Assembly: GCA_034189125.1 (NCBI GenBank)
Contig: JAXHVB010000018.1
Location: 775-64,774 of the forward strand
Origin: Pseudomonadota bacterium
GTDB taxonomy: Bacteria > Pseudomonadota > Gammaproteobacteria > Pseudomonadales > UBA5862
Length of the DNA: 64,000 bases
Direction of reading: 5' to 3'
This document shows, one piece after another, positions 27,694-50,742 of this stretch (position 1 is the stretch's first letter; each line of letters opens with the position of its first letter). A model generated the notes under the pieces. It was given only the letters and a program-made list of their open reading frames with translations, was not told the origin of the DNA and searched no databases. The position numbers and the translations under genes are program-made.

Positions 27694-29007
27694 ATGCGTG
27701 ATTTGTTCGTCACCGTTGTGGTTCTTGGCAGTTTGCCGATGATCCTGTTTCGCCCGTACCTTGGCATCCTGATGTGGTCATGGCTTGCGTACATGAATCC
27801 CCACAAGCTCTCCTGGGGGTTTGCGCGCGACTTTCCCTTCGCGATGCTGGTGGCGCTGGTGACCTTGATGGGGCTGCTGCTGGCGACGGAAAGCAAACGG
27901 GTTCCGCGTTCGTCGATCACGGTGTTGCTTGGCGTGTTCACCCTGTGGATGTTGCTGACCACGTTGCAGGCGACCTATCCGCAACTTGCCTGGTACCAGT
28001 GGGACAAGGTGTGGAAGATCATGCTGATGACGTTCGTCATCATCATGATGCTGCAGAGTCGGGCTCGAATCGACGCGCTGATCTGGGTGATGGCCGCTTC
28101 GATCGCGTTCTACGGCATCAAGGGGGGCATTTTTACCCTGACCACAGGCGGTGCCTACGCGGTTTATGGTCCGGATGGAACCTTCATCGGAGGCAACAAC
28201 GAGATTGGTCTGGCGCTCATCATGACCATCCCGTTGCTGCGGTACCTGCAATTGCAGGCGCCCAATCCGGTGCTCAAACGCGTACTGACGCCGGTCATGG
28301 TGCTCTGCTTCATCTCCGTGATTGGTACCCAATCCCGGGGTGCGTTGGTGGCGGTCACGGTGATGCTGGCGTTCTTCATTCTCAAGAGCCGCCGCCGGTT
28401 TGGGTTTTTGTTGCTGCTGGCGATCGTCGCGCCGCTGATTTGGAATTTCATGCCCGATACCTGGCATGACCGAATGGCCACCATCGACGACTACCAGGAA
28501 GACGCCTCTGCCATGGGCCGCATCAATGCGTGGTGGATGGCGTTCAATCTGGCGCAGGCGGAGTTTTTCGGTGGCGGCTTCGAGTGTTTTCGCCGTGGCA
28601 TGTTTCGCCTCTATGCACCCACTCCCTGGGATGTGCACGATGCCCACAGCATCTATTTCGAGGTGCTGGGGGAGCACGGTTTTGTGGGGCTGGCACTGTT
28701 TCTCGGAATAGGGGTGGTGGGTTTGCAAACCGCGCGCTCGATCATTCGTGAAACCAAACACGACCCGGACAAGCGCTGGATGGCTGACCTCGCCGCCATG
28801 CTGCAGGTGAGCCTGATCGGCTATGCTGCGGCGGGCATGTTCCTGGGGCTTGCGTATTTTGACTTCTACTATGCCCTGCTGGCGATCCTGGTGGCAGCCC
28901 GGCAGCTGTTGACGAGCGGCGAGCCCCTGGCGGGGCTGTTGACCCTGCGCAAGCGCACGCCCGAGGCCAGCAGGGAACCTGCCGGTGTGGGTGCTCCGGC
29001 CGTCTGA
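27694..29007 (+). CDS. Wzy/O-antigen-ligase-like polytopic membrane protein (putative O-glycosylation ligase/polymerase, exosortase-A-associated)
   Basis: RBS AGGAGA at 27683. About 10-12 TM helices with a Wzy_C-like segment (GTQSRGALVAVTVMLAFFIL) and a periplasmic loop carrying AHSIYFEVLGEHG. Hand-counted stretches are locally low in GC (~53-55%). Confidence 0.8.
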   Translation: MRDLFVTVVVLGSLPMILFRPYLGILMWSWLAYMNPHKLSWGFARDFPFAMLVALVTLMGLLLATESKRVPRSSITVLLGVFTLWMLLTTLQATYPQLAWYQWDKVWKIMLMTFVIIMMLQSRARIDALIWVMAASIAFYGIKGGIFTLTTGGAYAVYGPDGTFIGGNNEIGLALIMTIPLLRYLQLQAPNPVLKRVLTPVMVLCFISVIGTQSRGALVAVTVMLAFFILKSRRRFGFLLLLAIVAPLIWNFMPDTWHDRMATIDDYQEDASAMGRINAWWMAFNLAQAEFFGGGFECFRRGMFRLYAPTPWDVHDAHSIYFEVLGEHGFVGLALFLGIGVVGLQTARSIIRETKHDPDKRWMADLAAMLQVSLIGYAAAGMFLGLAYFDFYYALLAILVAARQLLTSGEPLAGLLTLRKRTPEASREPAGVGAPAV

Positions 29008-29019: not shown

Positions 29020-29949
29020 ATGAGCGATTGGTGGGTCAAAGTCGACAAAACCCTGCGTCACCACGCCCAGGGTGGTGTGCAGGCGCTGCGCGCCCTGGCC
29101 TGGCCCCTGTTGCGCCAACCGGCCGCCCCGGTCTTTGTCGTCGGCTGCAGCCGGGCGGGCACGACCCTGGTGTACAAGACGCTGTCCGAATCCCCGGAGC
29201 TTGGCAGCCTGCAACGTGAAACCCACGACTACTGGGCTGGGTTGCACCCGCCGAGCGAGACAGGCTGGCAGACCCATGCGATCGCACCCGAGCAGGCCAA
29301 CCCCGACGAGGCCAACCGAGTCGCACGGGACTTTTTTGTGGGAACCGGCCGCCACCACTGGGTCGACAAGAACAACCAGAATGGCCTGTCGGTGCCTTAC
29401 CTCCTTGGTTTGTTCCCGCGCGCCCGTTTCGTGTACGTGAAGCGGGCGCCTGGCGACAACATCAACAGCCTCATTGAGGGTTGGAACAAACCCGAGGAGT
29501 TTGCCACCTGGTCGGACCGCCTGCCGGGGTCCGTGGCAATCGACGGCGGGCGCATTCAGCGCTGGTGCTTTTTCTTGGCCGCGGGCTGGGAGGCGCTGCG
29601 CGCCGCCCCCCTTGCCCAAGTGGCCGCGTTTCAGTACCGCGCAATGAATGACGCCATTCTGTCGGCCCGGGAGGCGGTTCCTGCAAGCCAGTGGGCCGAA
29701 GTCCACTATGAAGACCTGGTCACCGACCCAGTCGAAGAGTTCCGCCGCCTTTTCAGGGACTGCGCCCTGGAATTCGATGCGGCGACCGAGCACCACTGCC
29801 GCAGGGTTCTGGAACGGCCTTACAACGCATTTTCTCCCATTGGGCTCGAAAAGTGGCGCAGCGGACCGCATGCCCCTGCCATCGAGGCGGTGCTGCCGGA
29901 GGTGGGTGCAGTGGCCGGGCGCATGGGTTATCCGGCTGATGCCGCATGA
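29020..29949 (+). CDS. sulfotransferase (PAPS-dependent family)
   Basis: 5'-phosphosulfate-binding loop VVGCSRAGTTLVYK and 3'-phosphate-binding segment YVKRAPGDNINSL. Confidence 0.75.
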   Translation: MSDWWVKVDKTLRHHAQGGVQALRALAWPLLRQPAAPVFVVGCSRAGTTLVYKTLSESPELGSLQRETHDYWAGLHPPSETGWQTHAIAPEQANPDEANRVARDFFVGTGRHHWVDKNNQNGLSVPYLLGLFPRARFVYVKRAPGDNINSLIEGWNKPEEFATWSDRLPGSVAIDGGRIQRWCFFLAAGWEALRAAPLAQVAAFQYRAMNDAILSAREAVPASQWAEVHYEDLVTDPVEEFRRLFRDCALEFDAATEHHCRRVLERPYNAFSPIGLEKWRSGPHAPAIEAVLPEVGAVAGRMGYPADAA

Positions 29950-31115
29950 GTGCATGGATGGTTGCCGTGGGCGGGCTGGTGCTCTGGGGGCTGCTGCTGG
30001 TGGCTGGCCTGCTGCGCCACCGCCGTGTGCTGCTCAATTTGTGGCGCGAGCCGGTGCTTCGAGTCCCGGTGTTGGCGTTCGAGAGCGATGACTGGAGCCC
30101 GCAGCCGCAGTCGCAGGCCGGTGCGCTCAGGGCCCTGAGCGAGGTGCTCGCACGCCACCGCGACGTCGATGGCAATCCTGGCCTCATGACCTTGGGGCTG
30201 GTGTCGACTTCCCCGCAGCTGGAACCCACCGGGGCGGTCCAGTGGATTGACTGGTCCGATCCACAGGTCGCCTCCACCCGCAGCGCGGTCCTGGAGGGGG
30301 TGGAAGCGGGCATTTTTGCGCTGCAGCTGCATGGCGCAGCCCATTGCTGGGAGCCCGCCTTTGAGGCTTGGGCGGCCGGTCAAGCGAGCGCCGAAGGGCT
30401 GTCACCGCTCAACGAGGTGCTTCCCGATGCCCTGCAAAGCCGGTGGTGGGATCCGTATGCGGACCCACCGGCGCCGGTGGGCCCGCGGAGCGCCGAAGCC
30501 GCGGCCCATGCAGAGGCGCTTGGCTTTCAATCCCATTGGGGTGCGGTGCCCGCTGTTGCAGTCCCACCCACGTTTTTGTGGAGCCATGCGGTGGAGCAAG
30601 GCTGGCGCCGTGGCGGGGTTCGCTGGGTGGTGACGCCAGGTGCCCGCTTCGCCGGGCGGGATCGGTCTGGGCGAATGCAGCCTGCGGAGTCGGGCCTATG
30701 CAATGGCGTTCGCTCGGTCACTGGCCTGCGCTATCTGGTTCGCGATTCGTACTACGAACCCTGGAAAGGCCACGCGCCTGAGGTGGCGCTTGCAGCGCTG
30801 GCGCGACAAACCCGATTGGGGCGTCCCACCTTTTTGGAAATCCACCGCTGCAACTTCATTCCCGACCAGGGATGCGCTGACGACGCGCTGACCGGCACCG
30901 AAGCCGTGTTGCGCCTGGCGCTGGAGCAGCGTCCCAGCCTGCGCTTCATGTCGCCGCAGGAGCTGGGGGAGCGCTTGGAGCACCGGCGCAGCGATGACCT
31001 GTTCGAGCGGGGCCTCGTGCGGGTCCGCATGTGGCTGCGGCGCTGCGGGGTTGCCCCTGCGCTGTCGCGCTGGCTCAAAGCCACTGGACTTTGGCCGCTG
31101 GTGAAGCTGGCATGA
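29946..31115 (+). CDS. hypothetical membrane-anchored protein (possible deacetylase-like/DUF2334-like fold, weak)
   Basis: ATGA-coupled on both sides. An N-terminal TM (VAVGGLVLWGLLLVAGLL) is followed by VLAFESDDW and LQLHGAAHCWEP, which loosely resemble the metal-binding DD and HxxH segments of polysaccharide-deacetylase-like folds. No confident family. Confidence 0.55.
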   Translation: MSAWMVAVGGLVLWGLLLVAGLLRHRRVLLNLWREPVLRVPVLAFESDDWSPQPQSQAGALRALSEVLARHRDVDGNPGLMTLGLVSTSPQLEPTGAVQWIDWSDPQVASTRSAVLEGVEAGIFALQLHGAAHCWEPAFEAWAAGQASAEGLSPLNEVLPDALQSRWWDPYADPPAPVGPRSAEAAAHAEALGFQSHWGAVPAVAVPPTFLWSHAVEQGWRRGGVRWVVTPGARFAGRDRSGRMQPAESGLCNGVRSVTGLRYLVRDSYYEPWKGHAPEVALAALARQTRLGRPTFLEIHRCNFIPDQGCADDALTGTEAVLRLALEQRPSLRFMSPQELGERLEHRRSDDLFERGLVRVRMWLRRCGVAPALSRWLKATGLWPLVKLA

Positions 31116-32071
31116 GTGCCCCGGCGCCGAAGTTTTCCATTGTGATCCCGGTCTACAACGGCGCCGAAACCTTGGCGCGGGCAGTCGATTCGGTTCTGGC
31201 GCAGACCCATCCAGCCCACGAAATCCTGATTGTGGACGACGGCTCCACCGACAGCACGGCACAGATTGCCGGCCGGTATGACGCGCCGGTGCGCTATGTT
31301 CACCAGCCGAACCAAGGGGTCTCCGCGGCGCGCAACCTGGGCGCACGCGAGGCCGTTGGGGATTGGCTGGCCTTTCTGGACGCGGACGACCACTACTACC
31401 CGAATCGGCTGCAGGTGCACGCCCAGATGCTCGCCGAGGTGCCCGACCTTGACCTGATGACGGCAGATTTCGACTACCTGGACCTGCAAGGCCAGGTTCT
31501 CGGACGTTCGCTGACGGCGAACCCACTGGGTCGGTCCCTGTTGGCGCGAGCCACTGGGTCTTCACTGGTGGTGGACGCGCCCACTGAGCTGGCGCAGTTC
31601 GTGGCCCAGCACTTTGGGGACACCCACACGCTGAGTGTGCGCCGCGCGCGTTTTCTGGAGGCCGGCGGCTATCCGCTTGGGTTCCCGGTGTGCGAAGACG
31701 TACACCTTCTGGTGCGTTTGACCGTGGCAGCGTCCCGCATCGGCGTGTGGCTCGAGCCTGTGGCTGCGTATGTGGTCCATGCAGGCAGCGCCACCCGCAA
31801 AGACCCGGTCCGGGCGCAGCGTGAAACGGTCCGCGCGCTCAGTGATCTGCGGATCCGGATCGCGGCTCCGTCTTGGGCCCGGCGCGGGGTGGCCGAGGGC
31901 CTGCGCCAGGCCCGCTTCGACTGGGCCGTGGCGTTGCTGCGCACTGGGAGGCGCGGCGAGGCGGTGGCGGCGATGGCACCGGCCGTCTGGGGATGTCCAG
32001 GCTGGACCAGCTGGCGCAATCTCGCAGCCGTGGTGCGCACTGCGCTCACCCCGAATGGCCAGCCGACATGA
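31112..32071 (+). CDS. GT2 glycosyltransferase
   Basis: ATG at 31112 (ATGA overlap). Motifs FSIVIPVYNGAETLARAVDSVLAQT, ILIVDDGSTD and FLDADD. Confidence 0.85.
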   Translation: MSAPAPKFSIVIPVYNGAETLARAVDSVLAQTHPAHEILIVDDGSTDSTAQIAGRYDAPVRYVHQPNQGVSAARNLGAREAVGDWLAFLDADDHYYPNRLQVHAQMLAEVPDLDLMTADFDYLDLQGQVLGRSLTANPLGRSLLARATGSSLVVDAPTELAQFVAQHFGDTHTLSVRRARFLEAGGYPLGFPVCEDVHLLVRLTVAASRIGVWLEPVAAYVVHAGSATRKDPVRAQRETVRALSDLRIRIAAPSWARRGVAEGLRQARFDWAVALLRTGRRGEAVAAMAPAVWGCPGWTSWRNLAAVVRTALTPNGQPT

Positions 32072-33288
32072 GTGGCTCACCGAAGCGATCGGAGGCCACG
32101 GGGCCTGTGGTGCCCATGTTGATGTTGACTGAACTGTTCTTGCCCACCAAGGGTGGCACTGCGGTTTGGTTCGACGAGGTCTGCCGTCGACTCGGAGACA
32201 AAGAGGTGCAGGTGGTCACGGCGCAAGTCCCCGGCGCAACCGGCCATGACCGCAACCACCCCAACCGAATTCGGCGAGTGCAGCTCGGCCGTCACCCCTG
32301 GCTTCGTCCTGAAAGTCTGCAGATGTACTGGCGCTTGTTCGCCGAAGGGTGGAAGGCGAGCGCCCGGGGGCAGGTGCGGGTGGTGCACGCGGGGCGAGGC
32401 TTGCCCGAGGGGCTCGTCGGCCTGGTGATCGCCCGGGCACGGCGGGTGCCCTTGATTGTGTACGCCCACGGCGAAGAGATCACCACCTGGACCCAGCCCC
32501 TGAAGGCCCGTTTCTTGCGCGAGGTCTACCGTCGGGCACAGGCCGTGGTCGCGAACAGCCGCTTCACCTTGGGCGCGCTTGAGGGGCTTGGTGTCGATCC
32601 CGAACGGATTCATCTTGTGTTTCCCGGGGTGGATCTTGCGCGCTTTCATCCCGGGCTTGCGGCGAGCGACTTGCGTGCCCAGGTGGACTGCGCTGGCGGC
32701 CGCAAGCTGGTGCTTTCGGTTGGCCGTCTGAGCCGGCGCAAAGGCTTTGATCGCGTGATTGAAGCCCTGCCGGGCCTTCAGCGCGCTGGGATCGATGTCG
32801 CCCATGCGATCATCGGCATTGGCGAGGAGGAGCCCCACCTGCGTGCGCTGGCGAACCGGCTCGGGGTTGCGGACCGGGTGTTCTTTCTGGGACAGGTCGC
32901 GGCCGATGACCTGCCCCGTTGGTACAATGCGGCGGATGTGTTCGCCATGCCGAACCGGGACGTGGATGGAGACACCGAGGGGTTTGGAATGGTCTACATT
33001 GAGGCCGCTGCCTGTGGGCGGACGAGTCTGGCAGGTTTGGCTGGTGGAACCGGTGACGCGGTCTTGGATGGGGAGACCGGCCTGCGGGTTGAGGGTGCCT
33101 CCAGCGACGCAGTCGAGGCGGCGCTCCGGCGTTTGCTGGCCGATGACTCCCTGAGAGACCGGTTGGCGACCCGGGCGCTGGCGCGCGCCCGCCAAGAGAT
33201 GGGTTGGGATCGGGTCACTGCCCAAACACGGGCGCTGCATGGCAAACTCGGCCTGGATGCCCAAGGAGCGACAGGAGAATGTGTATGA
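32068..33288 (+). CDS. GT4 glycosyltransferase
   Basis: ATG at 32068 (ATGA overlap). Motifs LTELFLPTKGGTAVW, GRLSRRKGFD and EGFGMVYIEAAACGRTSLAG. Confidence 0.85.
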   Translation: MSGSPKRSEATGPVVPMLMLTELFLPTKGGTAVWFDEVCRRLGDKEVQVVTAQVPGATGHDRNHPNRIRRVQLGRHPWLRPESLQMYWRLFAEGWKASARGQVRVVHAGRGLPEGLVGLVIARARRVPLIVYAHGEEITTWTQPLKARFLREVYRRAQAVVANSRFTLGALEGLGVDPERIHLVFPGVDLARFHPGLAASDLRAQVDCAGGRKLVLSVGRLSRRKGFDRVIEALPGLQRAGIDVAHAIIGIGEEEPHLRALANRLGVADRVFFLGQVAADDLPRWYNAADVFAMPNRDVDGDTEGFGMVYIEAAACGRTSLAGLAGGTGDAVLDGETGLRVEGASSDAVEAALRRLLADDSLRDRLATRALARARQEMGWDRVTAQTRALHGKLGLDAQGATGECV

Positions 33289-33896
33289 TCGATCGGGTGG
33301 ACGCAGTGGCCAGGGCCCAGAGGGCGTGGCAGAAGGTGACACGCGGGCTCTGTGTGTTGCTGGCGATGGGTGCTTCGGGTGGGGCGCTGGGGGCCGAAGG
33401 CTTTGCCAAAACACCGCAGGAGGAAGCCATGTGCAACGCGGCGATTTATCGCGGGCGGGACACCAGCGACCGCAACAACTGGCAGCACATGCACCACTAC
33501 TGCGATTGTCTGCGCTTTGCCCGCCGCGCCATGACCCAACCCGCCGCCTCCTCGGCACGCAGCCACAACATCAGCCGTGCCCTGGATGGCTGCGACTATG
33601 TGCTGGACCACACCAGTTCAGGCTTCTACATGCAGCCGGCCGTACGGGCTTCACGGGCCTACGTGTTGATGCTGGACAAGCGCTACCGCGACGCGGTGGC
33701 GGAGTACGAGCGGGCACTGCGGCAGGATCCGAATTACCTCAAGGCCTACATGGGGTTGTTCGACGCCTGGTCTGCAGCCGGTGACCTGCAGTCGGCCCGC
33801 AAGGCCGCCGAGCGGGGGCTTGCCATTTCCCCCAACTCCAAGGCACTGCAGCGGCGTCTGCGCAAGGTCACCCAAGAAGGTGAGGCGGACGGCTAG
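33285..33896 (+). CDS. small secreted TPR-repeat protein
   Basis: ATG at 33285 (ATGA overlap, AGGAG 8 nt upstream). Signal-like LCVLLAMGASGGALGAEG. C-terminal TPR-like helices (YRDAVAEYERALRQDPNYLKAYMGLFDAW, GDLQSARKAAERGLAISPNS). Confidence 0.6.
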   Translation: MIDRVDAVARAQRAWQKVTRGLCVLLAMGASGGALGAEGFAKTPQEEAMCNAAIYRGRDTSDRNNWQHMHHYCDCLRFARRAMTQPAASSARSHNISRALDGCDYVLDHTSSGFYMQPAVRASRAYVLMLDKRYRDAVAEYERALRQDPNYLKAYMGLFDAWSAAGDLQSARKAAERGLAISPNSKALQRRLRKVTQEGEADG

Positions 33897-36800
33897 CGCG
33901 CCTTGGACGCTGCAGTCCGCTGGGATGCCTTGGCAGCGTCGCTGACTGCGGGGGTCATCACTGGGTCCTGCGCGAGCCACTGTTCCAGTTCGGCAATCAG
34001 GCCTGCGCCCACCTTGGGGTGTTGGTCGAGCACATCGAACTTGCAGCCGGGGTCGGTGCGCAGATCAAATAGCAGGTACATTGGGCCGGCCTCAAGCGGC
34101 TGGTAGACCAGTTTCCATCCGTCCCGACACAGCATCCGGTCCTTGGCCCGCACGATGTCGGCTTGGTGTTCGGCCTTGATGCTGAGGGTTCCGGTTTCCT
34201 TGTCAGACACCTCCAGCAGATCGAGCAACTGTGGGTAGCGCAGGTGTCCCGGCGGAGTGCCCGGGAGGTCGGTCAGCCAGATGCCGGTCTCATTGATCGC
34301 CGGGCGAACCTCCGTGAAGCTGTGGCTGTTCCACCACGGCAGGACCGATGCGCCATCCACCGACTGCGGCACCGGCAGTTCGAGCAGTTCCAGCAAGGTG
34401 GGCATCAAGTCGATGCTCCGCACCAGATCGGTGACTCGCCCCCGGCCGGCGCGGCGCGGATCGGCAATCACCAGGGGCACCCGCGGACTGGCATCGCCCC
34501 TGGCTGAATTCCCCTGTCCCCAGGTGTCGTGTTCAAAGAACTCCATGCCGTGGTCGCTGTAGATGACCACAATGGTGTTGTCGGCCATGCCGCGGGCCGA
34601 GAGGTCGTCCAGTACCTTGCCCACTTCGTCGTCGAATTCCGCGACGCAGCTGTCGTACAGGTTCAGTACTTGGTCCAGATCAAACTCCTCGCGGGCCTCT
34701 CCCTGGCGCTCGATGATGTCAAATGGGTCGGTGAGCCGTGCCATGGCGAAGCGCGATTCACCTGCATAGTCGGGGGAGGTAAACCGTGTGTAGTAGGGGT
34801 GGCGGGCGCCGAACGGCGGATGGGTGGTGGAGAAAAACGTGTTGAGGAAAAACGGTTTGTTGGACTTTCCCAGCGCGTTCAGCGCCGCCCGAGTCCGCTG
34901 ACCAAGCAGGTCCGTGGTGGGGATGCCGCCCAGAAAGTGCAGCTCGGGTAGCAGCTGGCGGCCCGCGCAACCCTGGGAAAACAGCGAGAGAAACAGCCGC
35001 AGGTCCCGAGGTCCCTGGCGAATGAGGTACTTTAGGTTCCACTGGTCATCCGGCAAATCCAGCTGCTCGAAACCAAAGCTGAACTTGCCGAAATCGGCCC
35101 CGCACCAGTCGGAGACGACCGCAGTCTGGTAGCCTGCGTCCCTCAGAATCGTGGCCAAATCGGCGGACTTGATTTGCACCTCGGCGTCCGAGACAAAGTT
35201 GTCGCGCACACCGTGGTGGTGCGGCCAGGTGCCGGTAAAGAGTGACAGCAGACTCGGCGCTGTGCGGGCACAGGGCACGTAGCAGTTGGTGAAGCCGATC
35301 CCGCCGGCGATCAACGCATCGATTCTTGGGGTGAGCGAGGCGCCATTGCGCTGGGCACCGATGCGGTCGGCGCGCAGCGTGTCGGATCCCAGCATCAGGA
35401 GGTTTGGAGGTGACTTGTGCGCACGGCCTCTGCGGGGTCCTAGCCGGGGTCCGCGGGTGTCAGGCAACAGCCAATCCAGGCCACCGGCAAGCACCAGCAT
35501 CGCGCCTGCTAGCGTTGCCATGGCCGGCCAGTTGCCAGCGGCGGCGGCGTCAGCGAGCGCGAGCACCATGGGCGCACAGGCGCCGGCCACAAGGGCGCTG
35601 CCGAACACAGACAGCCGCCCCGGCGTCAGTTGCTTCCACAGGGGGTAGAGCCGACTCCAGCGGTAGCTGATTGAAGCCACCAGGGCCGCCGGCTGGTGCA
35701 GCAACATCGAACAGAACCGCCAGGAACAGGTGCCTGCGATGGCCGCAAGCGGAGCGAGCCAGGGGCCCCAAGCCAAGGATTCTGCGGTGGGAAACACCTG
35801 GACGAGCGCCCACCAGGAGACGGCGCCGATGCTGGCAAGGAACGCGATCAGCAGCCAACTCCAGGCTGCCAGGCGCGCCACGGCAAAGACCGTGTAGCGG
35901 CGATAGTGATTGAGGATTTCCTCGCGAATTTGGGGGCCCGTCTGGCTGAAGTGCAGGACCGACTTCACTGTCAGGGCCGCGGTGAACAAGGTTGCAAGCC
36001 CTGCGGCTGGACCAAGCGTTGGGGCCAGGGTGTTCGCATCCTGGTTGGTGAACCAACCGATGGCATACAGGAGGGCACCCGACGCGGCGAGCCCAGCAGG
36101 GCGCCGTGGCCGTGGCCAAAACTGCCTGCGGCGGTGGCTGCGGTTGTGGTCCTGCCGGGCAGCGACCACGCCTGCACACTCCCCCAGCGTGGCCGCCAAC
36201 CGCATCGCATAGAAGTGGCGCTTGTGTGGATTGAAAGTGAACAGCGCGCGCGCCAAGTGGGCGATGAGCAGGCGCCAGACGTACAGCGGAATTTTTCGCC
36301 GCTGGGTGTGAATGCGCATGCTCGCTTTCGAGCGGTGGTAGCTTTTTTTCAGTAGGTAGCTGCGCTTGAGCCGGTCGTGTTCGACGTGGTGACGCTGGCG
36401 CATGCCGGCCAGGTAGTACAGCCGTTCGCCGTGGTGCAGCGCCCGCGCTAGGAATTCGCTGTCTTCCCCGCCTCCGAGGTCGTGACCTCGGGGTCCAAGC
36501 TCCAGGGAATAGCCGCCGATCTCTGCAAAGATGCGGGTCTGGAGCACGAGGTTACCGCCACTCGGACGCGCGTCGCCTTCGCGCAGCCGGTGGTCCTGGT
36601 CTCCGAGATCAAACTGTGGCACCGGCAGTGGATAGATGCGGTACTTGCCTTGCTCGTGCACCCAATCGGGCTCGGTGCCATCCCAGTCAGGCAGCAGGCG
36701 GCCACAGAACATGCTCGCCGTCGGGTGTTGGTCGATGCCGGTGGCGATGGCTGTGAAAAAATTTGGGTCGACGCGCTGGTCATCGTCCACGATGGTGGCC

Positions 36801-37069
36801 CAGCGGGTTTGCAGCGCACCAATGGCGCGGTTGAGTGCCGCCGACTTTCCGGGCGTGGGTTCGGCGATCCACTCCAGCGGGACGTGTTCTTGCGATGGGT
36901 CGTGTTTGAAGCCATCGAGCAGAGCGTGGGTGTCATCCGTGCAGGCGTTGGCGATGACGAGAAGCCGGACCCCAGGCACCTGTTTGGCCTGGTTGAGTGC
37001 CCCGAGGGCGCGCCGCAGCAGGGCGGAGCGATTGTGGGTACAGATGACAACGGTCAGTGGCAACTCCAT
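33893..37069 (-). CDS. tripartite fusion: N-terminal GT2 glycosyltransferase / ~7-TM membrane domain / C-terminal sulfatase-like (alkaline-phosphatase superfamily) domain
   Basis: aa 1-260: LTVVICTHNRSALL, ANACTDDT, IVDDDQ and GEDSEF (GT2). aa ~265-535: hydrophobic helices. aa ~555-1058: NLLMLGSDTLRADRIG, TPRIDAL and NCYVPCARTAPSLLSLFTG (codons 35252-35272), YSDHG and WGQG. The sulfatase CxPxR position reads T-A-P-S-L. Confidence 0.8.
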   Translation of the reverse strand: MELPLTVVICTHNRSALLRRALGALNQAKQVPGVRLLVIANACTDDTHALLDGFKHDPSQEHVPLEWIAEPTPGKSAALNRAIGALQTRWATIVDDDQRVDPNFFTAIATGIDQHPTASMFCGRLLPDWDGTEPDWVHEQGKYRIYPLPVPQFDLGDQDHRLREGDARPSGGNLVLQTRIFAEIGGYSLELGPRGHDLGGGEDSEFLARALHHGERLYYLAGMRQRHHVEHDRLKRSYLLKKSYHRSKASMRIHTQRRKIPLYVWRLLIAHLARALFTFNPHKRHFYAMRLAATLGECAGVVAARQDHNRSHRRRQFWPRPRRPAGLAASGALLYAIGWFTNQDANTLAPTLGPAAGLATLFTAALTVKSVLHFSQTGPQIREEILNHYRRYTVFAVARLAAWSWLLIAFLASIGAVSWWALVQVFPTAESLAWGPWLAPLAAIAGTCSWRFCSMLLHQPAALVASISYRWSRLYPLWKQLTPGRLSVFGSALVAGACAPMVLALADAAAAGNWPAMATLAGAMLVLAGGLDWLLPDTRGPRLGPRRGRAHKSPPNLLMLGSDTLRADRIGAQRNGASLTPRIDALIAGGIGFTNCYVPCARTAPSLLSLFTGTWPHHHGVRDNFVSDAEVQIKSADLATILRDAGYQTAVVSDWCGADFGKFSFGFEQLDLPDDQWNLKYLIRQGPRDLRLFLSLFSQGCAGRQLLPELHFLGGIPTTDLLGQRTRAALNALGKSNKPFFLNTFFSTTHPPFGARHPYYTRFTSPDYAGESRFAMARLTDPFDIIERQGEAREEFDLDQVLNLYDSCVAEFDDEVGKVLDDLSARGMADNTIVVIYSDHGMEFFEHDTWGQGNSARGDASPRVPLVIADPRRAGRGRVTDLVRSIDLMPTLLELLELPVPQSVDGASVLPWWNSHSFTEVRPAINETGIWLTDLPGTPPGHLRYPQLLDLLEVSDKETGTLSIKAEHQADIVRAKDRMLCRDGWKLVYQPLEAGPMYLLFDLRTDPGCKFDVLDQHPKVGAGLIAELEQWLAQDPVMTPAVSDAAKASQRTAASKAR

Positions 37070-37076
37070 GGCCGGC

Positions 37077-38000
37077 CTACTGAGTCGGGGGAAGCGTCAG
37101 ACCGTGGCGCCGAATGGCGCCCAGCCATTCTTCCACCAGGCCGTCCTCAGTCCGCATGTCCCAAGGGTAGCCCGTGCGTTTGAACGGGTAGACGCCCGCC
37201 TCGACCGCACGGATCAACAGCGGCAGGTGCTCGACATAGGCTGCGTCGTGCTTCCAGGGGTGGATGGACCAGCTGTCGGTGCCAGTGGAGGTCCAGCGTC
37301 CCAAACCGCGCTCGCCCAAAGTGTGACTGATGCTGTCCTCAAGGGGCTCGCCGGGTTTGTGTTGCACCAGCGGCAGCAGCCGGTCTCGCCAACGGGCCTT
37401 GTGCAGGAGGAAGTAGCGGGTGCTCATGGTGGTGCAACGTTTCCATCCTTGGGGGCTTGTCTTGAGCGGGCGGTCAAGCAGGCGTTCCAGCCAGTTCCCG
37501 GCAATGGGTGGTCCGCCGCGCACAGTGACCATGGCGGCATCCGGGGTGCGTTCCATGAACTCGATGCCCGCCTCGATCCAGCACCAGTCGCTGCCACGGT
37601 GAAACAACATGTCGGAGTCGATGTGCAGGATGTAATCGCCCTGGCAACGGTCCAGGGCGTACAGGTACTGGTAGATCGGTGCACCGGAAAAATCGCGCAG
37701 GTCCATGTCGGCGGTCGCGAAATGCGTGGTCAGGATGCGGTGCTGTTCAGCCTCGCCCCAGGGGATCTCGTCGCAGCGATCAATCCAGCCTTCGGACTGC
37801 AACGCGCTCAGCAGGGTCTGCATGCCTTCGAGGTTGCCGCGGTTGCGCTCCAGGTACTTGCCGTCTGGCCGGCCGGGATCGAAGGCGACCAGCCGTTCCA
37901 CGAACGGGTAGTCGAAGGTGCGCAACACATGGCGCAAGGTGGGCCCGAAGAAATCCTGGTCGGTGACACAGGCGTTGACGGTGAAGCTGACCGTTGCCAT
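37077..38000 (-). CDS. hypothetical protein, possible GT-A-like nucleotide-sugar transferase
   Basis: 307-aa sense ORF with operon-consistent spacing (7 nt and 13 nt gaps). Its only recognisable element is a DxD-like ILHIDSDMLF. No confident family. Confidence 0.5.
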   Translation of the reverse strand: MATVSFTVNACVTDQDFFGPTLRHVLRTFDYPFVERLVAFDPGRPDGKYLERNRGNLEGMQTLLSALQSEGWIDRCDEIPWGEAEQHRILTTHFATADMDLRDFSGAPIYQYLYALDRCQGDYILHIDSDMLFHRGSDWCWIEAGIEFMERTPDAAMVTVRGGPPIAGNWLERLLDRPLKTSPQGWKRCTTMSTRYFLLHKARWRDRLLPLVQHKPGEPLEDSISHTLGERGLGRWTSTGTDSWSIHPWKHDAAYVEHLPLLIRAVEAGVYPFKRTGYPWDMRTEDGLVEEWLGAIRRHGLTLPPTQ

Positions 38001-38013
38001 TGGGTATCAATCC

Positions 38014-39009
38014 TCAGCCGGTGCTCCAGCGCTGCAGGTGCACGCATGCGTGGTTGTGCAGGCGGTAGTAGGCCCGCTTCAGTGGGGGCAGGCGGACCGT
38101 CGAGGTAACGATCGGGTAACCGAATTGCTTCAGGGTCTTCCCGACCGAACCTTCCAGGGTGCGCAGCTGCGATGGGGTCCATTGTTGGCGCCACTTTTCG
38201 GTGTTGCTGGCCTGCACGGGCTGCTGGAGCAGCGGTGTTTTGCCTGCCTCGCCGGACTTTTCAAAATGGATGACGCGGGGGTCGTACTCCATCTGCAGGT
38301 AACCACAGACCTGGCGAACCGTACCTTCAGGGTCGGTCAGGAGGTCTTCGTAGCGGATCTCCAGGTACTGGTTGCCGGCCATGTTTTGGCCCAACTCGTT
38401 GCCGATTTCGACGTACTGTTCCCATACTTTGGCGGCAAAATAGGGGTTGTACACGCCAAAATCGGTACCGCGCGCGAGCATGGAAGCGGCCACGTCGCGC
38501 CCGTCACGCACCAGGTGGATGAACTGGGCTTTGGGAAACCAGTCGAGGAGTTTCGGCATGTGCAGCACGTAGTATGGGGTCTTGTCTCCCCAGCGGTGTT
38601 TGCCCTCTCCGGCGGCATTCTTCTCGAACAGACCGGCAATCAGGTCACGCACAGTCCTCCGGCCTTCCGCCCAAAGTTCAGGGGCCAGGCGGTCAATGTC
38701 GAACTCGATGCCATGCAGGTCCGTGTCCAAGAATTGCGGGTTTCGTCTGTGCAGGTCTTGCAGAAAGGCCCGGATGCCGGTCTCGGTTTCGAGTGCTTTG
38801 AAACGGGTCTGGTCACGGTACAGTGGAACCAGGAAGTGGGACTCGCCGGTTGGCAGCGACAACTCCGGATGGGACCGCAGCATGTATTGCAGCAGGGTGG
38901 TTCCTGACCGGGGCGCCCCCACGATGAAAACCGGGGTCTCGCTTGACCTGGCCTGGGGATGGCCACCCACGGACTGGGCTCGGCTTGTCACCTGGGCGTC
39001 AGTGTGCAT
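38014..39009 (-). CDS. sulfotransferase (PAPS-dependent family)
   Basis: 5'-PSB loop FIVGAPRSGTTLLQYML and 3'-PB segment HLVRDGRDVAASML. ATG at 39009 gives an 11-nt overlap with the upstream GT2; ATG at 39063 is also possible. Confidence 0.8.
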   Translation of the reverse strand: MHTDAQVTSRAQSVGGHPQARSSETPVFIVGAPRSGTTLLQYMLRSHPELSLPTGESHFLVPLYRDQTRFKALETETGIRAFLQDLHRRNPQFLDTDLHGIEFDIDRLAPELWAEGRRTVRDLIAGLFEKNAAGEGKHRWGDKTPYYVLHMPKLLDWFPKAQFIHLVRDGRDVAASMLARGTDFGVYNPYFAAKVWEQYVEIGNELGQNMAGNQYLEIRYEDLLTDPEGTVRQVCGYLQMEYDPRVIHFEKSGEAGKTPLLQQPVQASNTEKWRQQWTPSQLRTLEGSVGKTLKQFGYPIVTSTVRLPPLKRAYYRLHNHACVHLQRWSTG

Positions 39010-40000
39010 GGGGGTCGGCCGGACCCGTGCTGACCGCCTGGACGGTGCCCACCGGCGGCTCAATGGGCTGGTGCCGGTCTTGCCAGAGGCCGTGCAAGGT
39101 CCCGAAAAAGTGCCACAGGATCATCTCCTGGGCAAATGCTTCCGGCGCCGGCTTGGTGAATCGCGCGGTCAGCGCACGCGCGCCGGCACGCAGGGTCTGT
39201 ACAACCAAGTAGGGAGGGATACCGCCGATCCGGCGTCTTGCCGGAACTCCGAGGGTGCGCGCCAGGTTGTGACTGGTTTGTCGCCGCCAGCGTCGGAAAT
39301 AGGACTTGCGGGTCCTGAAGGCTTCGATGCGGTGGTGCACGCGGGATTCCGGAACGTACACGAGCTTGGCGCCCGCAGCCAAGAATCGGGTGAACAGCTC
39401 GCTGTCTTCGCCGCTGGCCAGCTGATTTCCCCTGCGACCGCGGTGCACATCGAAGTCTCCGTGCTGGTCGATCAAGCGCCGTCGAATCGCCATGTTGGCA
39501 CCGAACGGCAGTTGCCCTGGGTGTTCGATCAGGTAGGGACGGGTGTCGACCTTGACCGCGAGAAAGCCGAAAAACCGTTCGGTGAGCCAAGCAGGGGGCG
39601 GGGTTTCCCAGTCAGGTGCAATGTACCCACCGCAGCCGTCGGCTTGCTCTCGCTCCAGGGCTGTCACTGTGGTTTGAATCCAGTTCGGCTCCGGACGCAC
39701 GTCGTCGTCGGTGAACAGCAACAGCTTGCCAGCGGCGGCGCGAATCCCGGCGTTGCGTGCGTGCGACAGACCCTGCTGAGGCTCGAAGACGTACCTGAGC
39801 TGTGGGACATTTTGCCCGCCGCGCTCGACCACGGTGCGGGTGTGGTCGGTGGAGTTGTTGTCCACCACCACCAACTCCCAGGGCCAGTCGGGTGGAACCA
39901 CTTGTGCGCCGAGCGCAGTCAAGGTGTGGCGCAACGAATCTGCACGGTTGTAGGTGCAGACGATGACGGATACCGCCGGGCGTTCGCCAGGGCCGGTCAT
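38999..40000 (-). CDS. GT2 glycosyltransferase
   Basis: VSVIVCTYNRADSLRHTLTAL, VVDNNSTD, LFTDDDV and GEDSELF. ATGA overlap with the upstream gene. Confidence 0.85.
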   Translation of the reverse strand: MTGPGERPAVSVIVCTYNRADSLRHTLTALGAQVVPPDWPWELVVVDNNSTDHTRTVVERGGQNVPQLRYVFEPQQGLSHARNAGIRAAAGKLLLFTDDDVRPEPNWIQTTVTALEREQADGCGGYIAPDWETPPPAWLTERFFGFLAVKVDTRPYLIEHPGQLPFGANMAIRRRLIDQHGDFDVHRGRRGNQLASGEDSELFTRFLAAGAKLVYVPESRVHHRIEAFRTRKSYFRRWRRQTSHNLARTLGVPARRRIGGIPPYLVVQTLRAGARALTARFTKPAPEAFAQEMILWHFFGTLHGLWQDRHQPIEPPVGTVQAVSTGPADPHAH

Positions 40001-41747: not shown

Positions 41748-41758
41748 TCGGTCCGTTG

Positions 41759-41776
41759 CACCGCCTGTTGGCGGTG
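41759..41776 (-). other. perfect intra-operon hairpin (7-bp stem, 4-nt loop) in the only 100-nt gap of the minus-strand GT block
   Basis: CACCGCC-TGTT-GGCGGTG at 41759-41776, between the GT4 stop (41848) and the GT2 start (41747). No U-tract follows on the transcribed strand, so it is not a classical terminator. Confidence 0.3.
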
Positions 41777-41847
41777 GATCGCGGGGTCGATCGATGCTTG
41801 GGTGCGGGCGCGATTTTCCCCCTCAGTGTAGCAGGCGGTCCGGGACA

Positions 41848-50728: not shown

Positions 50729-50742
50729 GGGCTGGAAGTCCT

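What the first reader, a model, noticed from the sequence alone, without database searches (positions are those of the whole stretch)
29020..39009. Two PAPS-type sulfotransferases and no PAPS-supply genes: prediction of a sulfated EPS
29020-29949 carries GCSRAGTT and KRAPGDNINS; 38014-39009 carries APRSGTT and VRDGRDVAAS. Both therefore carry the 5'-phosphosulfate and 3'-phosphate binding motifs of PAPS-dependent sulfotransferases, one in each of the two convergent operons. Together with the uronic-acid genes (59119-61455), de-N-acetylases and a possible alpha/alpha-toroid epimerase/lyase-like orphan, this is a toolkit reminiscent of glycosaminoglycan-like sulfated acidic polymers. Such polymers are uncommon and poorly characterised genetically in bacteria. 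No cysC/cysDN-like genes are in the window, so the donor must come from housekeeping sulfur assimilation.
Basis: partly seen in the sequence, partly recalled or inferred. Interest (0 to 1): 0.55.

Follow-up and report, generated by a model that had tools for sequence, protein, structure and literature searches.

The report
Sulfotransferase pair in exosortase polysaccharide locus
Two genuine sulfate-transferring enzymes sit among the sugar-building genes of a bacterial slime (exopolysaccharide) locus, and the same arrangement recurs in many sulfur- and methane-oxidising bacteria, so these microbes probably make a sulfated slime that nobody has yet examined chemically.

Summary
Both ORFs exist and carry the quoted motifs. 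Both score far above Pfam's cut-off for Sulfotransfer_3 (ST-A E=4e-23, ST-B E=1e-37). The motif residues are invariant in each family. AlphaFold models of both match only PAPS-dependent sulfotransferases among the listed top 50 PDB matches.

The window is a canonical XrtA/PEP-CTERM exosortase polysaccharide locus. ST-A heads a translationally coupled block (ST-A, 389-aa orphan, GT2, GT4). That block recurs in 55-57 of 58 related loci, mostly Thiobacillus, and in the gammaproteobacterium Methylomarinovum. ST-B lies in the convergent operon and is an accessory gene, present in only 16 of 51 such loci.

No PAPS-supply gene was found in the window, or by motif scan within 10 kb of ST-A in 75 other loci.

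The most likely reading is cytoplasmic sulfation of the lipid-linked glycan before export. The acceptor is inferred from context only. The nearest solved structures are protein-tyrosine and polyketide sulfotransferases.

The neighbouring "sulfatase" domain lacks the sulfatase active-site signature (Thr replaces formylglycine), so it is probably not a sulfatase.

This is a new member of a known but rare kind, and of moderate interest.

The parts
29020..29949 (+). ST-A: soluble PAPS-type sulfotransferase (309 aa). Core member of the conserved block.
   Evidence: Pfam Sulfotransfer_3 E=4.4e-23. Residues 42-49 (GCSRAGTT), E67/H69/D70, and K141, R142, P144-N147 and S150 of the KRAPGDNINS motif are invariant across 26 homologs. 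AF2 pLDDT 89.5. All 50 listed top Foldseek PDB matches are sulfotransferases. No TM segment. Its 120 best homologs are 56-64% identical and near full-length.
38014..39009 (-). ST-B: soluble PAPS-type sulfotransferase (331 aa from the ATG at 39009; the ORF extends to a TTG at 39063). Accessory, strain-variable member.
   Evidence: Sulfotransfer_3 E=1.2e-37 and Sulfotransfer_1 E=2e-13. G31 and P33-T38 (A32 nearly invariant), PTGESHF and RDGRD...S are invariant. Its Glu56 aligns with the Glu of the 'CGEE' stretch in human TPST1. AF2 pLDDT 88.1. Foldseek matches TPST1/2 and the OLS/CurM sulfotransferases at E about 1e-10 to 1e-11. Present in 16 of 51 related loci.
29946..31115 (+). 389-aa orphan with one N-terminal TM helix. 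Its start overlaps the ST-A stop codon by 4 nt.
   Evidence: No Pfam or NCBIfam family, and no PDB sequence match. Present downstream of ST-A in 56 of 58 loci with room. TM segment at residues 1-25.
31112..32071 (+). GT2 glycosyltransferase. 4-nt overlap with the orphan.
   Evidence: Glycos_transf_2 E=2.8e-35. Called as 319 aa. Ortholog follows ST-A in 57 of 58 loci and also in Thauera sinica.
32068..33288 (+). GT4 glycosyltransferase. 4-nt overlap with the GT2. Last enzyme gene of the plus-strand operon.
   Evidence: NCBIfam GT4 hits. Called as 406 aa. Present in 55 of 58 loci.
27694..29007 (+). Wzy-like 'O-glycosylation ligase, exosortase A system-associated', immediately upstream of ST-A (12-nt gap).
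   Evidence: TIGR03097 at 530.7 bits against a cut-off of 188. DUF5935 + Wzy_C. Present within 10 kb upstream of ST-A in 54 of 61 loci.
33893..37069 (-). 1058-aa fusion: GT2 domain, TM block, and a sulfatase-like alkaline-phosphatase-superfamily domain that lacks the formylglycine signature. Last gene of the minus-strand operon.
   Evidence: Pfam Sulfatase 140.9 bits, GT2 50 bits. T-A-P-S-L aligns where S1 sulfatases have C/S-x-P-x-R, and SDW where they have GKW. 'CARTAP' is kept in all 44 of 49 orthologs where the motif was found, and 'CARTAPSL' in 43 of them. Present in 46 of 49 loci. Split into two genes in Methylomarinovum.
37077..38000 (-). 307-aa protein between ST-B and the fusion gene. 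Weak GT2-like match only.
   Evidence: Glycos_transf_2 E=0.009, below cut-off. Orthologs in 11 loci. A 301-aa GT2 gene occupies the same position in L075.
38999..40000 (-). GT2 glycosyltransferase directly upstream of ST-B (11-nt overlap with the ATG at 39009).
   Evidence: Glycos_transf_2 E=3.2e-29. Same position in Methylomarinovum L075.
39997..40770 (-). Cytoplasmic NodB-type polysaccharide deacetylase, two genes upstream of ST-B.
   Evidence: Polysacc_deac_1 E=3.2e-22. No TM segment. Collinear in L075.
40767..43026 (-). GT2 (40767-41747) and GT4 (41848-43026). They complete the conserved GT4-GT2-deacetylase-GT2-ST-B series.
   Evidence: Pfam. Collinear with L075 genes at 6204-10004.
49472..51561 (-). 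Wzt (ABC ATPase with Wzt_C domain) and Wzm (ABC-2 permease): an ABC-type glycan exporter in the same minus-strand gene string as ST-B.
   Evidence: ABC_tran + Wzt_C, and ABC2_membrane. Not found within 10 kb of ST-A in the Thiobacillus-type loci.
17085..18617 (+). Exosortase XrtA with a C-terminal EpsI domain. It defines the locus type.
   Evidence: TIGR03109 at 343.9 bits against a cut-off of 208; TIGR02914 EpsI.
59119..61455 (-). TviC-like epimerase (59119-60126) and TviB-like UDP-GlcNAc 6-dehydrogenase (60178-61455). Together they supply acetamido-uronic acids.
   Evidence: NF011729 TviB at 590.2 bits against a cut-off of 592; NF011728 TviC at 120 bits. Called as 425 aa.
61605..63005 (+). 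Priming polyprenyl-phosphate sugar-phosphate transferase of the XrtA system.
   Evidence: TIGR03013 at 575 bits against a cut-off of 393.

Best explanation
ST-A and ST-B are soluble, cytoplasmic, PAPS-dependent sulfotransferases. They most likely add sulfate to the undecaprenyl-diphosphate-linked glycan of the XrtA/PEP-CTERM-associated exopolysaccharide. This would happen at the inner face of the cytoplasmic membrane, before the glycan is exported (Wzm/Wzt) or polymerised (Wzy-like TIGR03097 protein).

ST-A is a fixed component. It is translationally coupled to a 389-aa membrane-anchored orphan, a GT2 and a GT4, and probably sulfates the sugar that one of these adds. ST-B is a strain-variable decoration enzyme in the convergent operon (GT4-GT2-deacetylase-GT2-ST-B). 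It may act on a de-N-acetylated or neighbouring residue.

PAPS comes from an unlinked APS kinase.

Shown here: family membership, conserved PAPS-binding and catalytic motifs, fold, lack of TM segments, and conserved synteny with glycan genes. Inferred: the glycan acceptor, the timing, O- versus N-sulfation, and the source of PAPS.
For: - Profile hits far above threshold.
- The 5'-PSB and 3'-PB motifs are invariant (apart from A32 of ST-B, nearly invariant), as is a Glu/His pair after the P-loop, in 26-sequence alignments of each family.
- ST-B Glu56 and Lys143 align with the 'CGEE' Glu and 'NKDP' Lys of human TPST1.
- AF2 models are confident (pLDDT 89.5 and 88.1). The 50 listed top PDB fold matches of each are almost all PAPS/PAP-bound sulfotransferases.
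- Neither protein has a TM segment, which fits use of a cytoplasmic donor.
- The locus is a complete XrtA EPS system. It has a chain-length determinant, OPX export protein, tyrosine kinase, XrtA, the stp1-3 glycosyltransferases, an amidotransferase, a Wzy-like ligase and a priming transferase.
- ST-A, the orphan, the GT2 and the GT4 overlap by 4 nt each.
- With adequate flanks, the orphan, GT2 and GT4 follow ST-A in 56, 57 and 55 of 58 loci. The Wzy-like gene precedes it in 54 of 61.
- The same convergent two-sulfotransferase layout occurs in T. denitrificans DSM 12475, T. thioparus DSM 505 and Methylomarinovum caldicuralii.
- In Thauera sinica the ST-A ortholog sits in a Wzx-type polysaccharide locus next to the same GT2.
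- No PEP-CTERM protein gene, peptide exporter or polyketide gene lies beside either sulfotransferase.
- An active APS kinase is known in T. denitrificans.
Against: - No chemistry: nobody has shown sulfate in the EPS of any organism carrying this module.
- The nearest solved structures are tyrosylprotein sulfotransferases, the CurM/OLS acyl-ACP sulfotransferases and mycobacterial Stf1/Stf9. Heparan-sulfate sulfotransferases rank lower.
- NCBIfam has no specific model for either protein.
- The related loci are mostly from one family (Thiobacillaceae), so the synteny counts are not independent events.
- PAPS supply in the window's own organism is unknown.
Confidence: 0.62

Rival explanations
1. 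The sulfotransferases modify proteins rather than the polysaccharide. They could sulfate tyrosines, or the glycans, of PEP-CTERM proteins that the exosortase XrtA processes, by analogy with TPST/RaxST.
For: The top sequence and fold neighbours of both enzymes include human and tick tyrosylprotein sulfotransferases: ST-B E about 1e-13 by sequence, and Foldseek E=4e-11 and 2e-7. The locus is defined by a protein-sorting enzyme, XrtA.
Against: - PEP-CTERM proteins are secreted, whereas both sulfotransferases lack signal peptides and TM segments.
- No PEP-CTERM protein ORF is in the window, and no peptide-export genes flank either gene.
- The fixed partners of ST-A are glycosyltransferases.
- Similarity to TPST is no greater than to the CurM/OLS sulfotransferases, which act on non-protein substrates.
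Confidence: 0.12
2. The acceptor is a lipid, glycolipid or small acylated molecule made by the locus, in the manner of the mycobacterial Stf enzymes or the CurM/OLS sulfotransferases, rather than the exported polymer.
For: - ST-A's best PDB sequence matches are mycobacterial Stf9 and Stf1 (2z6v, 2zq5).
- ST-B's best match is the OLS/CurM sulfotransferase domain.
- The locus also encodes two exosortase-associated acyltransferases (TIGR03694), a CapK-like acyl-CoA ligase and a squalene-cyclase-like protein.
Against: - Those lipid-type genes are 20-25 kb from ST-A and in other transcription units.
- The immediate, translationally coupled neighbours of both sulfotransferases are glycosyltransferases and a polysaccharide deacetylase.
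- The matches to Stf proteins are weak (E=7e-7 and 0.03).
Confidence: 0.1
3. ST-B, and perhaps ST-A, modifies a separate ABC-transporter-exported glycan (an O-antigen or capsule-like polymer), not the XrtA-associated EPS. The sulfate could serve as a backbone decoration or as a chain-end signal read by the Wzt C-terminal domain.
For: In the window, ST-B shares a minus-strand gene string with Wzm, Wzt (with a Wzt_C carbohydrate-binding domain), an FkbM methyltransferase and a WbsX glycosyltransferase. ABC-dependent pathways finish the polymer in the cytoplasm, where PAPS is available (established knowledge).
Against: Wzm/Wzt, FkbM and WbsX are absent within 10 kb in the Thiobacillus-type loci and in Methylomarinovum, which still keep the ST-B module. 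The whole string lies inside the XrtA locus, between XrtA-associated genes and the PrsK/R-like regulators.
Confidence: 0.12
4. The genes are inactive relics, or enzymes that use another donor, and nothing is sulfated.
For: No PAPS-supply gene is linked to them in any of 76 sequences examined.
Against: All PAPS-binding and catalytic motif residues are invariant or nearly so across homologs only 52-64% identical. That indicates purifying selection on the active site. Both ORFs are intact and show coding-type GC3.
Confidence: 0.04

Closest known systems
Synechan (xss) cluster of Synechocystis PCC 6803: the genetically characterised bacterial sulfated EPS (PMC8205485)
   Same: Two sulfotransferases of different subfamilies sit among many glycosyltransferases, with polymerase, co-polymerase and OPX export functions. 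The sulfotransferases are predicted to act during repeat-unit assembly. PAPS genes are not in the cluster.
   Different: The xss cluster is cyanobacterial and plasmid-borne. It is Wzx/Wzy-type and regulated by XssQRS. The present locus is a proteobacterial XrtA/PEP-CTERM exosortase system with a Wzm/Wzt exporter, no Wzx found in the window, acetamido-uronic-acid and deacetylase genes, and a sulfatase-like partner. Sequence relationship to XssA/XssE was not tested because no sequences were at hand.
Predicted sulfated-EPS clusters in Pontiella sulfatireligans (PMC7356697) and Actinoplanes missouriensis wps-1 (PMC13390465)
   Same: PF13469-type or related sulfotransferases are embedded in GT2/GT4-rich EPS clusters. 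Sulfation is predicted from genes, and for Pontiella supported by dye assays.
   Different: The phyla and export systems differ. None of these clusters is linked to an exosortase, and none is shown to be a conserved multi-genus module.
XrtA/PEP-CTERM exosortase EPS system (Haft et al. 2006, PMC1569441)
   Same: The window carries the full marker set: TIGR03007, 03016, 03015, 03006, 03019, 03087, 03109, 03088, 03108, 04063, 03097, 03013, 03027 and 03018.
   Different: The founding description never mentions sulfotransferases or sulfation. No paper in the searched library combines the terms sulfotransferase, PEP-CTERM and exopolysaccharide, and none found links XrtA loci with sulfation.
Tyrosylprotein sulfotransferases (TPST1/2) and the CurM/OLS polyketide sulfotransferase domains
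   Same: They are the closest solved structures. The 5'-PSB 'PRSGTT', the Glu base position, the 'DK(T/S)P' lysine and the 3'-PB 'RDGR(D/A)...S' are shared.
   Different: Identity is only 15-23% and TM-score about 0.55-0.7. The genomic context here is glycan synthesis, not peptide or polyketide.
Heparan-sulfate NDST logic (N-deacetylation followed by N-sulfation)
   Same: A cytoplasmic NodB-type deacetylase lies two genes upstream of ST-B, and the order is conserved in Methylomarinovum. Acetamido-sugar precursors are supplied by the locus.
   Different: The proteins are separate rather than a fusion. NDST1 and NST rank only 27th-47th among fold matches. N-sulfation is untested.
S1 formylglycine sulfatases (for the neighbouring fusion gene)
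   Same: The Pfam Sulfatase domain scores 141 bits. The best PDB matches are choline and carrageenan sulfatases.
   Different: Thr-Ala-Pro-Ser-Leu replaces C/S-x-P-x-R, and Asp replaces the Lys of 'GKW'. The domain is also fused to a GT2 and a TM block. From general knowledge, a Thr nucleophile is typical of phosphoryl-transfer members of the superfamily (EptA, LtaS, NPP).

Membership tests
PAPS-dependent sulfotransferase superfamily (Pfam Sulfotransfer_3, PF13469) | Profile score above the curated gathering threshold | tested here: met
   ST-A 83.1 bits and ST-B 130.7 bits against a cut-off of 27.
PAPS-dependent sulfotransferase superfamily (Pfam Sulfotransfer_3, PF13469) | 5'-phosphosulfate-binding loop (P/S)(K/R)xGTT after the first beta-strand | tested here: met
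   ST-A G42-C-S-R-A-G-T-T49 is invariant. In ST-B, G31 and P33-R-S-G-T-T38 are invariant and A32 is nearly invariant. Each alignment has 26 sequences. A strand precedes the loop in both AF2 models.
PAPS-dependent sulfotransferase superfamily (Pfam Sulfotransfer_3, PF13469) | 3'-phosphate-binding motif (R/K...D...S at a strand-helix junction) | tested here: met
   ST-A K141, R142, P144, G145, D146, N147 and S150 are invariant. ST-B R168, D169, G170, R171, D172 and S176 are invariant.
PAPS-dependent sulfotransferase superfamily (Pfam Sulfotransfer_3, PF13469) | Catalytic base (Glu or His) shortly after the 5'-PSB loop | tested here: met
   ST-B E56 ('PTGESHF', invariant) aligns with the Glu of TPST1 'CGEE'. 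ST-A has invariant E67, H69 and D70 ('RETHD') at the corresponding place. For ST-A, which residue is the base is inferred, not aligned to a characterised enzyme.
PAPS-dependent sulfotransferase superfamily (Pfam Sulfotransfer_3, PF13469) | Sulfotransferase fold | tested here: met
   Foldseek against the PDB: the 50 listed top matches of both models are sulfotransferases or the homologous retinol dehydratase.
PAPS-dependent sulfotransferase superfamily (Pfam Sulfotransfer_3, PF13469) | PAPS-dependent sulfuryl transfer to an acceptor | not testable with these tools
   This needs an enzyme assay.
Sulfated exopolysaccharide biosynthesis cluster (synechan/xss type) | Sulfotransferase genes embedded among glycosyltransferase, polymerisation and export genes | tested here: met
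   The ST-A, orphan, GT2 and GT4 genes overlap by 4 nt each.
Sulfated exopolysaccharide biosynthesis cluster (synechan/xss type) | The polymer made by the cluster carries sulfate esters | not testable with these tools
   No chemical data exist for any carrier of this module in the searched literature.
XrtA/PEP-CTERM exosortase EPS system | Exosortase A plus the associated marker families in one locus | tested here: met
   TIGR03109 scores 343.9 against a cut-off of 208. TIGR03007, 03015, 03006, 03019, 03087, 03088, 03108, 04063, 03097, 03013, 03027 and 03018 are all above their cut-offs.
XrtA/PEP-CTERM exosortase EPS system | PEP-CTERM substrate proteins | tested here: inconclusive
   None was found in the window by a C-terminal motif scan. 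Such genes are usually dispersed in the genome, which is not available.
S1 formylglycine-dependent sulfatase (for the 33893-37069 fusion) | C/S-x-P-x-R maturation and active-site motif | tested here: not met
   T-A-P-S-L lies at the aligned position. The Thr-Ala-Pro is kept in all 44 of 49 orthologs where the motif was found, and the full 'CARTAPSL' in 43 of them.
S1 formylglycine-dependent sulfatase (for the 33893-37069 fusion) | Sulfate-binding Lys of the 'GKWH' segment | tested here: not met
   'SDWC' aligns with 'GKWH' of 6pt6.
Tyrosylprotein sulfotransferase (TPST/RaxST type) | A peptide substrate or its export system encoded nearby, or a lumenal/secretory location | tested here: not met
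   No TM segment or signal sequence. No PEP-CTERM ORF or peptide exporter lies beside either gene. Fold similarity alone does not discriminate.

The most novel reading that the evidence does not exclude
The ST-A block (sulfotransferase, 389-aa orphan, GT2, GT4), together with the convergent sulfatase-like gene, is a core and so far undescribed part of the XrtA/PEP-CTERM exopolysaccharide machinery in Thiobacillaceae, Methylococcales and relatives. If so, sulfated acidic EPS would be widespread among environmental and wastewater Proteobacteria. These genes would then be the missing genetic basis for the 'sulfated glycosaminoglycan-like' polymers detected chemically in granular sludge and biofilms, whose sulfotransferases are reported as unknown (PMC10483923, PMC7356697).
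Probability: 0.35. Interest if true: 0.65.

Novelty: new member of a known kind. Interest (0 to 1): 0.45.

Why it matters
Sulfated polysaccharides are well known in animals, algae and cyanobacteria. Recent papers still describe them as essentially unreported, or genetically unexplained, in other bacteria (PMC8205485, PMC13390465). Meanwhile chemical assays keep finding sulfated polymers in sludge granules without knowing which genes make them (PMC10483923).

This window shows two bona fide sulfotransferases wired into an exosortase-type EPS locus. The layout is conserved in cultured, tractable organisms: Thiobacillus denitrificans DSM 12475, T. thioparus DSM 505 and Methylomarinovum caldicuralii. 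That turns a vague prediction into a directly testable one. It would also give a function to PAPS synthesis in Thiobacillus, which has a dedicated APS kinase.

If confirmed, it would add charge chemistry (metal binding, hydration, phage and grazer interactions) to the poorly understood PEP-CTERM/exosortase systems.

Tried and rejected
- NCBIfam gave no specific model for ST-A. For ST-B it gave only a 28-residue NoeE P-loop match, 31.6 bits against a cut-off of 500. This was rejected as evidence of a Nod-factor function.
- The 389-aa orphan has no Pfam hit even at E<=5 and no PDB sequence hit at E<=10.
- The look-up of encoding contigs had no record for P0237 (Rubrivivax) or for the ORF at 63019-63996.
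- Gay et al. 2009 (PMC2756168) is not held. The APS kinase of T. denitrificans is therefore cited second-hand.
- Motif scans for the APS-kinase P-loop and for CysD, CysH and CysQ signatures found nothing in the window or in the 75 other loci held at that point.
- A C-terminal PEP-motif scan gave only three out-of-frame artefacts.
- I considered reading the fusion gene as a sulfate-editing sulfatase paired with the sulfotransferases. I rejected this because the formylglycine motif and the sulfate-binding lysine are missing.
- I considered ST-B a universal partner of ST-A. I rejected this because only 16 of 51 loci with the fusion gene have it, and several loci with enough room lack it.
- Fold and sequence neighbours could not resolve the acceptor class.

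Full report
**Observation**

The ORF at 29020-29949 (+), 309 aa, here called ST-A, contains GCSRAGTT and KRAPGDNINS. The ORF ending at 38014 (-), here called ST-B, contains APRSGTT and VRDGRDVAAS. The mechanical ST-B ORF reaches a TTG at 39063. Its homologs are mostly about 310-335 aa and cover about 85% of that ORF.

Both proteins score far above Pfam's threshold for Sulfotransfer_3: 83.1 and 130.7 bits against a cut-off of 27, with E=4e-23 and 1e-37. ST-B also hits Sulfotransfer_1. Both ORFs have coding-type GC3 of 0.77.

**Are they real PAPS-type sulfotransferases?**

I aligned each protein with 25 homologs that are 52-64% identical. In ST-A, G42-T49 (the 5'-phosphosulfate loop) is invariant, as are E67/H69/D70 and K141, R142, P144-N147 and S150 (the 3'-phosphate motif). 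In ST-B, G31, P33-T38, P53-F59 ('PTGESHF'), R168-D172 and S176 are invariant, and A32 is nearly so.

phmmer aligns ST-B's 'PRSGTT', Glu56 and Lys143 with 'PRSGTT', the 'CGEE' Glu and the 'NKDP' Lys of human TPST1. From my own knowledge these are the catalytic Arg, base and Lys of TPSTs.

The AlphaFold models are confident: pLDDT 89.5 with pTM 0.87, and pLDDT 88.1 with pTM 0.85. The 50 listed top PDB fold matches of each model are sulfotransferases, or the homologous retinol dehydratase, and almost all are PAP/PAPS complexes. Neither protein has a hydrophobic segment, so both are soluble and cytoplasmic, where PAPS is found.

**What the locus is**

NCBIfam shows a complete XrtA/PEP-CTERM exosortase polysaccharide system:
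- Export and length control: OPX export protein (TIGR03027), chain-length determinant (TIGR03007), tyrosine autokinase (TIGR03018) and outer-membrane protein (TIGR03016).
- Accessory enzymes: ATPase (TIGR03015), WecB, XrtA-system deacetylase (TIGR03006), FemAB-like protein (TIGR03019), amidotransferase (TIGR03108) and RmlABC.
- Glycosyltransferases stp1, stp2 and stp3.
- XrtA itself, fused to EpsI (TIGR03109, 344 bits).
- The Wzy-like 'O-glycosylation ligase' (TIGR03097, 531 bits).
- At the far right, the priming transferase (TIGR03013).

A PrsK/PrsR-like sensor kinase and sigma-54 regulator lie just beyond the window. The window itself is part of a 136-kb metagenome scaffold.

ST-A follows the Wzy-like gene after 12 nt. 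It then overlaps a 389-aa orphan by 4 nt, which overlaps a GT2 by 4 nt, which overlaps a GT4 by 4 nt.

ST-B lies in the convergent minus-strand string. Upstream to downstream this reads:
- a CapK-like ligase, a squalene-cyclase-like protein, a formyltransferase and a GT2;
- Wzm, Wzt (with Wzt_C), a GT4, an FkbM methyltransferase, WbsX and a GT2;
- a 773-aa orphan, then GT4, GT2, a NodB-type deacetylase and GT2;
- ST-B, a 307-aa protein, and finally a 1058-aa fusion of GT2, a TM block and a sulfatase-like domain.

**Conservation elsewhere**

ST-A has 1174 database relatives. Its 120 best are near full-length, 56-64% identical, and where named come from Thiobacillus, Thiobacter, Thauera, Methylocaldum and unnamed Nitrosomonadales/Burkholderiales.

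A genome scan returned 70 loci, mostly Thiobacillaceae. I ran tblastn of the window's proteins against them. Where flanks are long enough:

| Gene relative to ST-A | Loci with it / loci with room |
|---|---|
| 389-aa orphan (downstream) | 56 / 58 |
| GT2 (downstream) | 57 / 58 |
| GT4 (downstream) | 55 / 58 |
| Wzy-like gene (upstream) | 54 / 61 |
| Sulfatase-like gene (convergent) | 46 / 49 |

T. denitrificans DSM 12475 and T. thioparus DSM 505 also carry an ST-B ortholog beside the fusion gene.

The complete genome of the gammaproteobacterium Methylomarinovum caldicuralii shows the same convergent layout. One arm reads GT4, GT2, deacetylase, GT2, ST-B, GT2, sulfatase-like gene. The other reads GT4, GT2, orphan, GT4, ST-A, next to an asparagine-synthase-like gene and the Wzy-like gene.

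ST-B is not universal. Only 16 of 51 loci with the fusion gene have it, and several loci with room read fusion, GT2, GT2, deacetylase instead. In Thauera sinica the ST-A ortholog sits in a Wzx-type polysaccharide locus, again next to the same GT2.

So ST-A is a fixed part of a glycan-building block, and ST-B is a strain-variable decoration enzyme. One caveat applies: most loci come from one bacterial family, so the counts are not independent.

**PAPS supply**

No cysC, cysDN, cysH or cysQ-like gene appeared in the family scans of about 55 of the window's large ORFs. None appeared in the 10 kb beyond its right end. A motif scan of the window and the 75 other loci held at that point also found none.

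The inference 'housekeeping assimilation' is weaker. From general knowledge, many Betaproteobacteria reduce APS directly, so PAPS may need a dedicated kinase. T. denitrificans has a characterised two-domain APS kinase (Gay et al. 2009, cited in PMC3734648 and PMC13213808). That shows the donor is available in the genus that carries most orthologs. For the window's own organism it is unknown.

**Mechanism proposed**

The priming transferase starts a lipid-linked glycan. Precursors would include acetamido-uronic acids (TviB-like at 590 bits against a cut-off of 592, plus a TviC-like epimerase), ManNAc (WecB) and rhamnose (Rml). Cytoplasmic glycosyltransferases extend it, and a cytoplasmic NodB-type deacetylase may expose amines. 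ST-A and ST-B then transfer sulfate from PAPS while the intermediate still faces the cytoplasm. Export and polymerisation follow, through Wzm/Wzt or the Wzy-like protein and the PCP/OPX proteins.

The steps shown here are enzyme family, motifs, fold, cytoplasmic location and conserved linkage to glycosyltransferases. The acceptor, the position and the O- versus N-linkage are inferred.

**Rivals**

The nearest solved structures are tyrosylprotein sulfotransferases, the CurM/OLS acyl-ACP sulfotransferases and mycobacterial Stf1/Stf9. Heparan-sulfate enzymes rank lower. Homology therefore does not identify a carbohydrate acceptor.
- Protein sulfation is disfavoured. PEP-CTERM proteins are secreted while the enzymes are cytoplasmic. 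No PEP-CTERM ORF or peptide exporter is nearby.
- A lipid acceptor is possible, because acyltransferase, CapK-like and cyclase-like genes are in the locus. Those genes are distant from both sulfotransferases.
- ST-B might serve a separate Wzm/Wzt-exported glycan. However, the ST-B module persists where Wzm/Wzt are absent.

**The 'sulfatase'**

The C-terminal domain of the fusion hits Pfam Sulfatase at 141 bits and PDB sulfatases at E about 1e-26. At the formylglycine motif C/S-x-P-x-R it has T-A-P-S-L. The Thr-Ala-Pro is kept in all 44 of 49 orthologs where the motif was found, and the full 'CARTAPSL' in 43. 'SDW' replaces the 'GKW' lysine. It fails two defining sulfatase features, so I do not file it as a sulfatase. 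From general knowledge, a Thr nucleophile suggests phosphoryl-transfer chemistry as in EptA, LtaS or NPP. Its role is open.

**Comparison with the literature**

- The synechan paper states that sulfotransferase genes had not been found in other bacterial EPS clusters (PMC8205485).
- Pontiella (2020) and Actinoplanes (2026) report predicted sulfated-EPS clusters as noteworthy.
- A 2023 study found sulfated glycoconjugates throughout granular-sludge EPS but could not find the sulfotransferases (PMC10483923).
- The founding PEP-CTERM paper never mentions sulfotransferases.
- No paper in the library combines the terms sulfotransferase, PEP-CTERM and exopolysaccharide. The few papers sharing related terms do not link XrtA loci with sulfation.
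- The genes themselves are already annotated as 'sulfotransferase family protein' in public genomes.

**Verdict**

This is a new member of a known but rare kind, a bacterial EPS cluster with sulfotransferases. What this work adds is that the module is conserved inside exosortase loci of cultured bacteria, where the prediction can be tested. Interest is moderate (0.45).

Noticed in passing
window 33893-37069 (-): This is a 1058-aa fusion of a GT2 domain, a multi-pass TM block (about residues 330-540) and a sulfatase-like domain. Thr603 sits at the formylglycine position (T-A-P-S-L instead of C/S-x-P-x-R), and Asp replaces the 'GKW' lysine. The gene is conserved in 46 of 49 related loci. It is split into a GT2 gene plus a 679-aa sulfatase-like gene in Methylomarinovum (L075 10918-13859). 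It is probably not a sulfatase, and its function is unknown.
   Followed up: partly
window 29946-31115 (+): This is a 389-aa orphan with one N-terminal TM helix. It is translationally coupled to ST-A through an ATGA overlap and is present after ST-A in 56 of 58 loci. It has no Pfam, NCBIfam or PDB sequence match at permissive thresholds.
   Followed up: partly
window 43017-52772 (-): A block of Wzm, Wzt (with Wzt_C), GT4, FkbM methyltransferase, WbsX, GT2 and a 773-aa orphan with no family (43017-45338) lies inside the XrtA locus. Apart from one locus with a WbsX-like match, it is not found within 10 kb of ST-A in the related loci. It looks like an inserted ABC-transporter-type glycan module. 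No Wzx flippase was found among the window ORFs scanned.
   Followed up: partly
window 52723-56365 (-) and L062 5898-9298: A triad of a CapK-like AMP-ligase, a squalene-cyclase-like (SQHop_cyclase_C) protein and a formyltransferase recurs next to the ST-A block. It is seen in a Methylococcales MAG, and partly in Thiobacillus loci.
   Followed up: partly
window 4896-6653 (both strands): Two divergently oriented paralogs of the 'PEP-CTERM/exosortase system-associated acyltransferase' (TIGR03694) lie here. The domains map to about 4943-5639 (-) and 5928-6554 (+). The long minus-strand ORF probably starts later than listed.
   Followed up: no
window 33893-33896: The two convergent operons end back to back. 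The stop codon of the plus-strand TPR gene (ends at 33896) and that of the minus-strand fusion gene (ends at 33893) overlap by 4 nt. That leaves no intergenic space for terminators.
   Followed up: no
window 56350-58215 (+) and 23102-25123 (+): There are two asparagine-synthase-type amidotransferases. One is the canonical XrtA amidotransferase (TIGR03108, 1033 bits). The other is a divergent paralog (223 bits, below cut-off) whose orthologs sit immediately upstream of ST-A, on the opposite strand, in most Thiobacillus loci. It might amidate uronic acids.
   Followed up: no
L077 321-3823 (beyond the window's right end): A GAF/HATPase sensor kinase and a sigma-54 response regulator (PrsK/PrsR-like) flank the locus about 6-9 kb past the window end. 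An ScmC-family protein and an NTP_transf_5 protein lie between them and the window.
   Followed up: no
L004 1375-4938 (Thauera sinica): The Thauera locus carrying the ST-A ortholog also encodes an 1187-aa protein with VanZ, DSE-like_N and Hepar_II_III_C domains. This is a dermatan-sulfate-epimerase/heparinase-like architecture, suggestive of uronic-acid epimerisation or cleavage next to a sulfotransferase.
   Followed up: no
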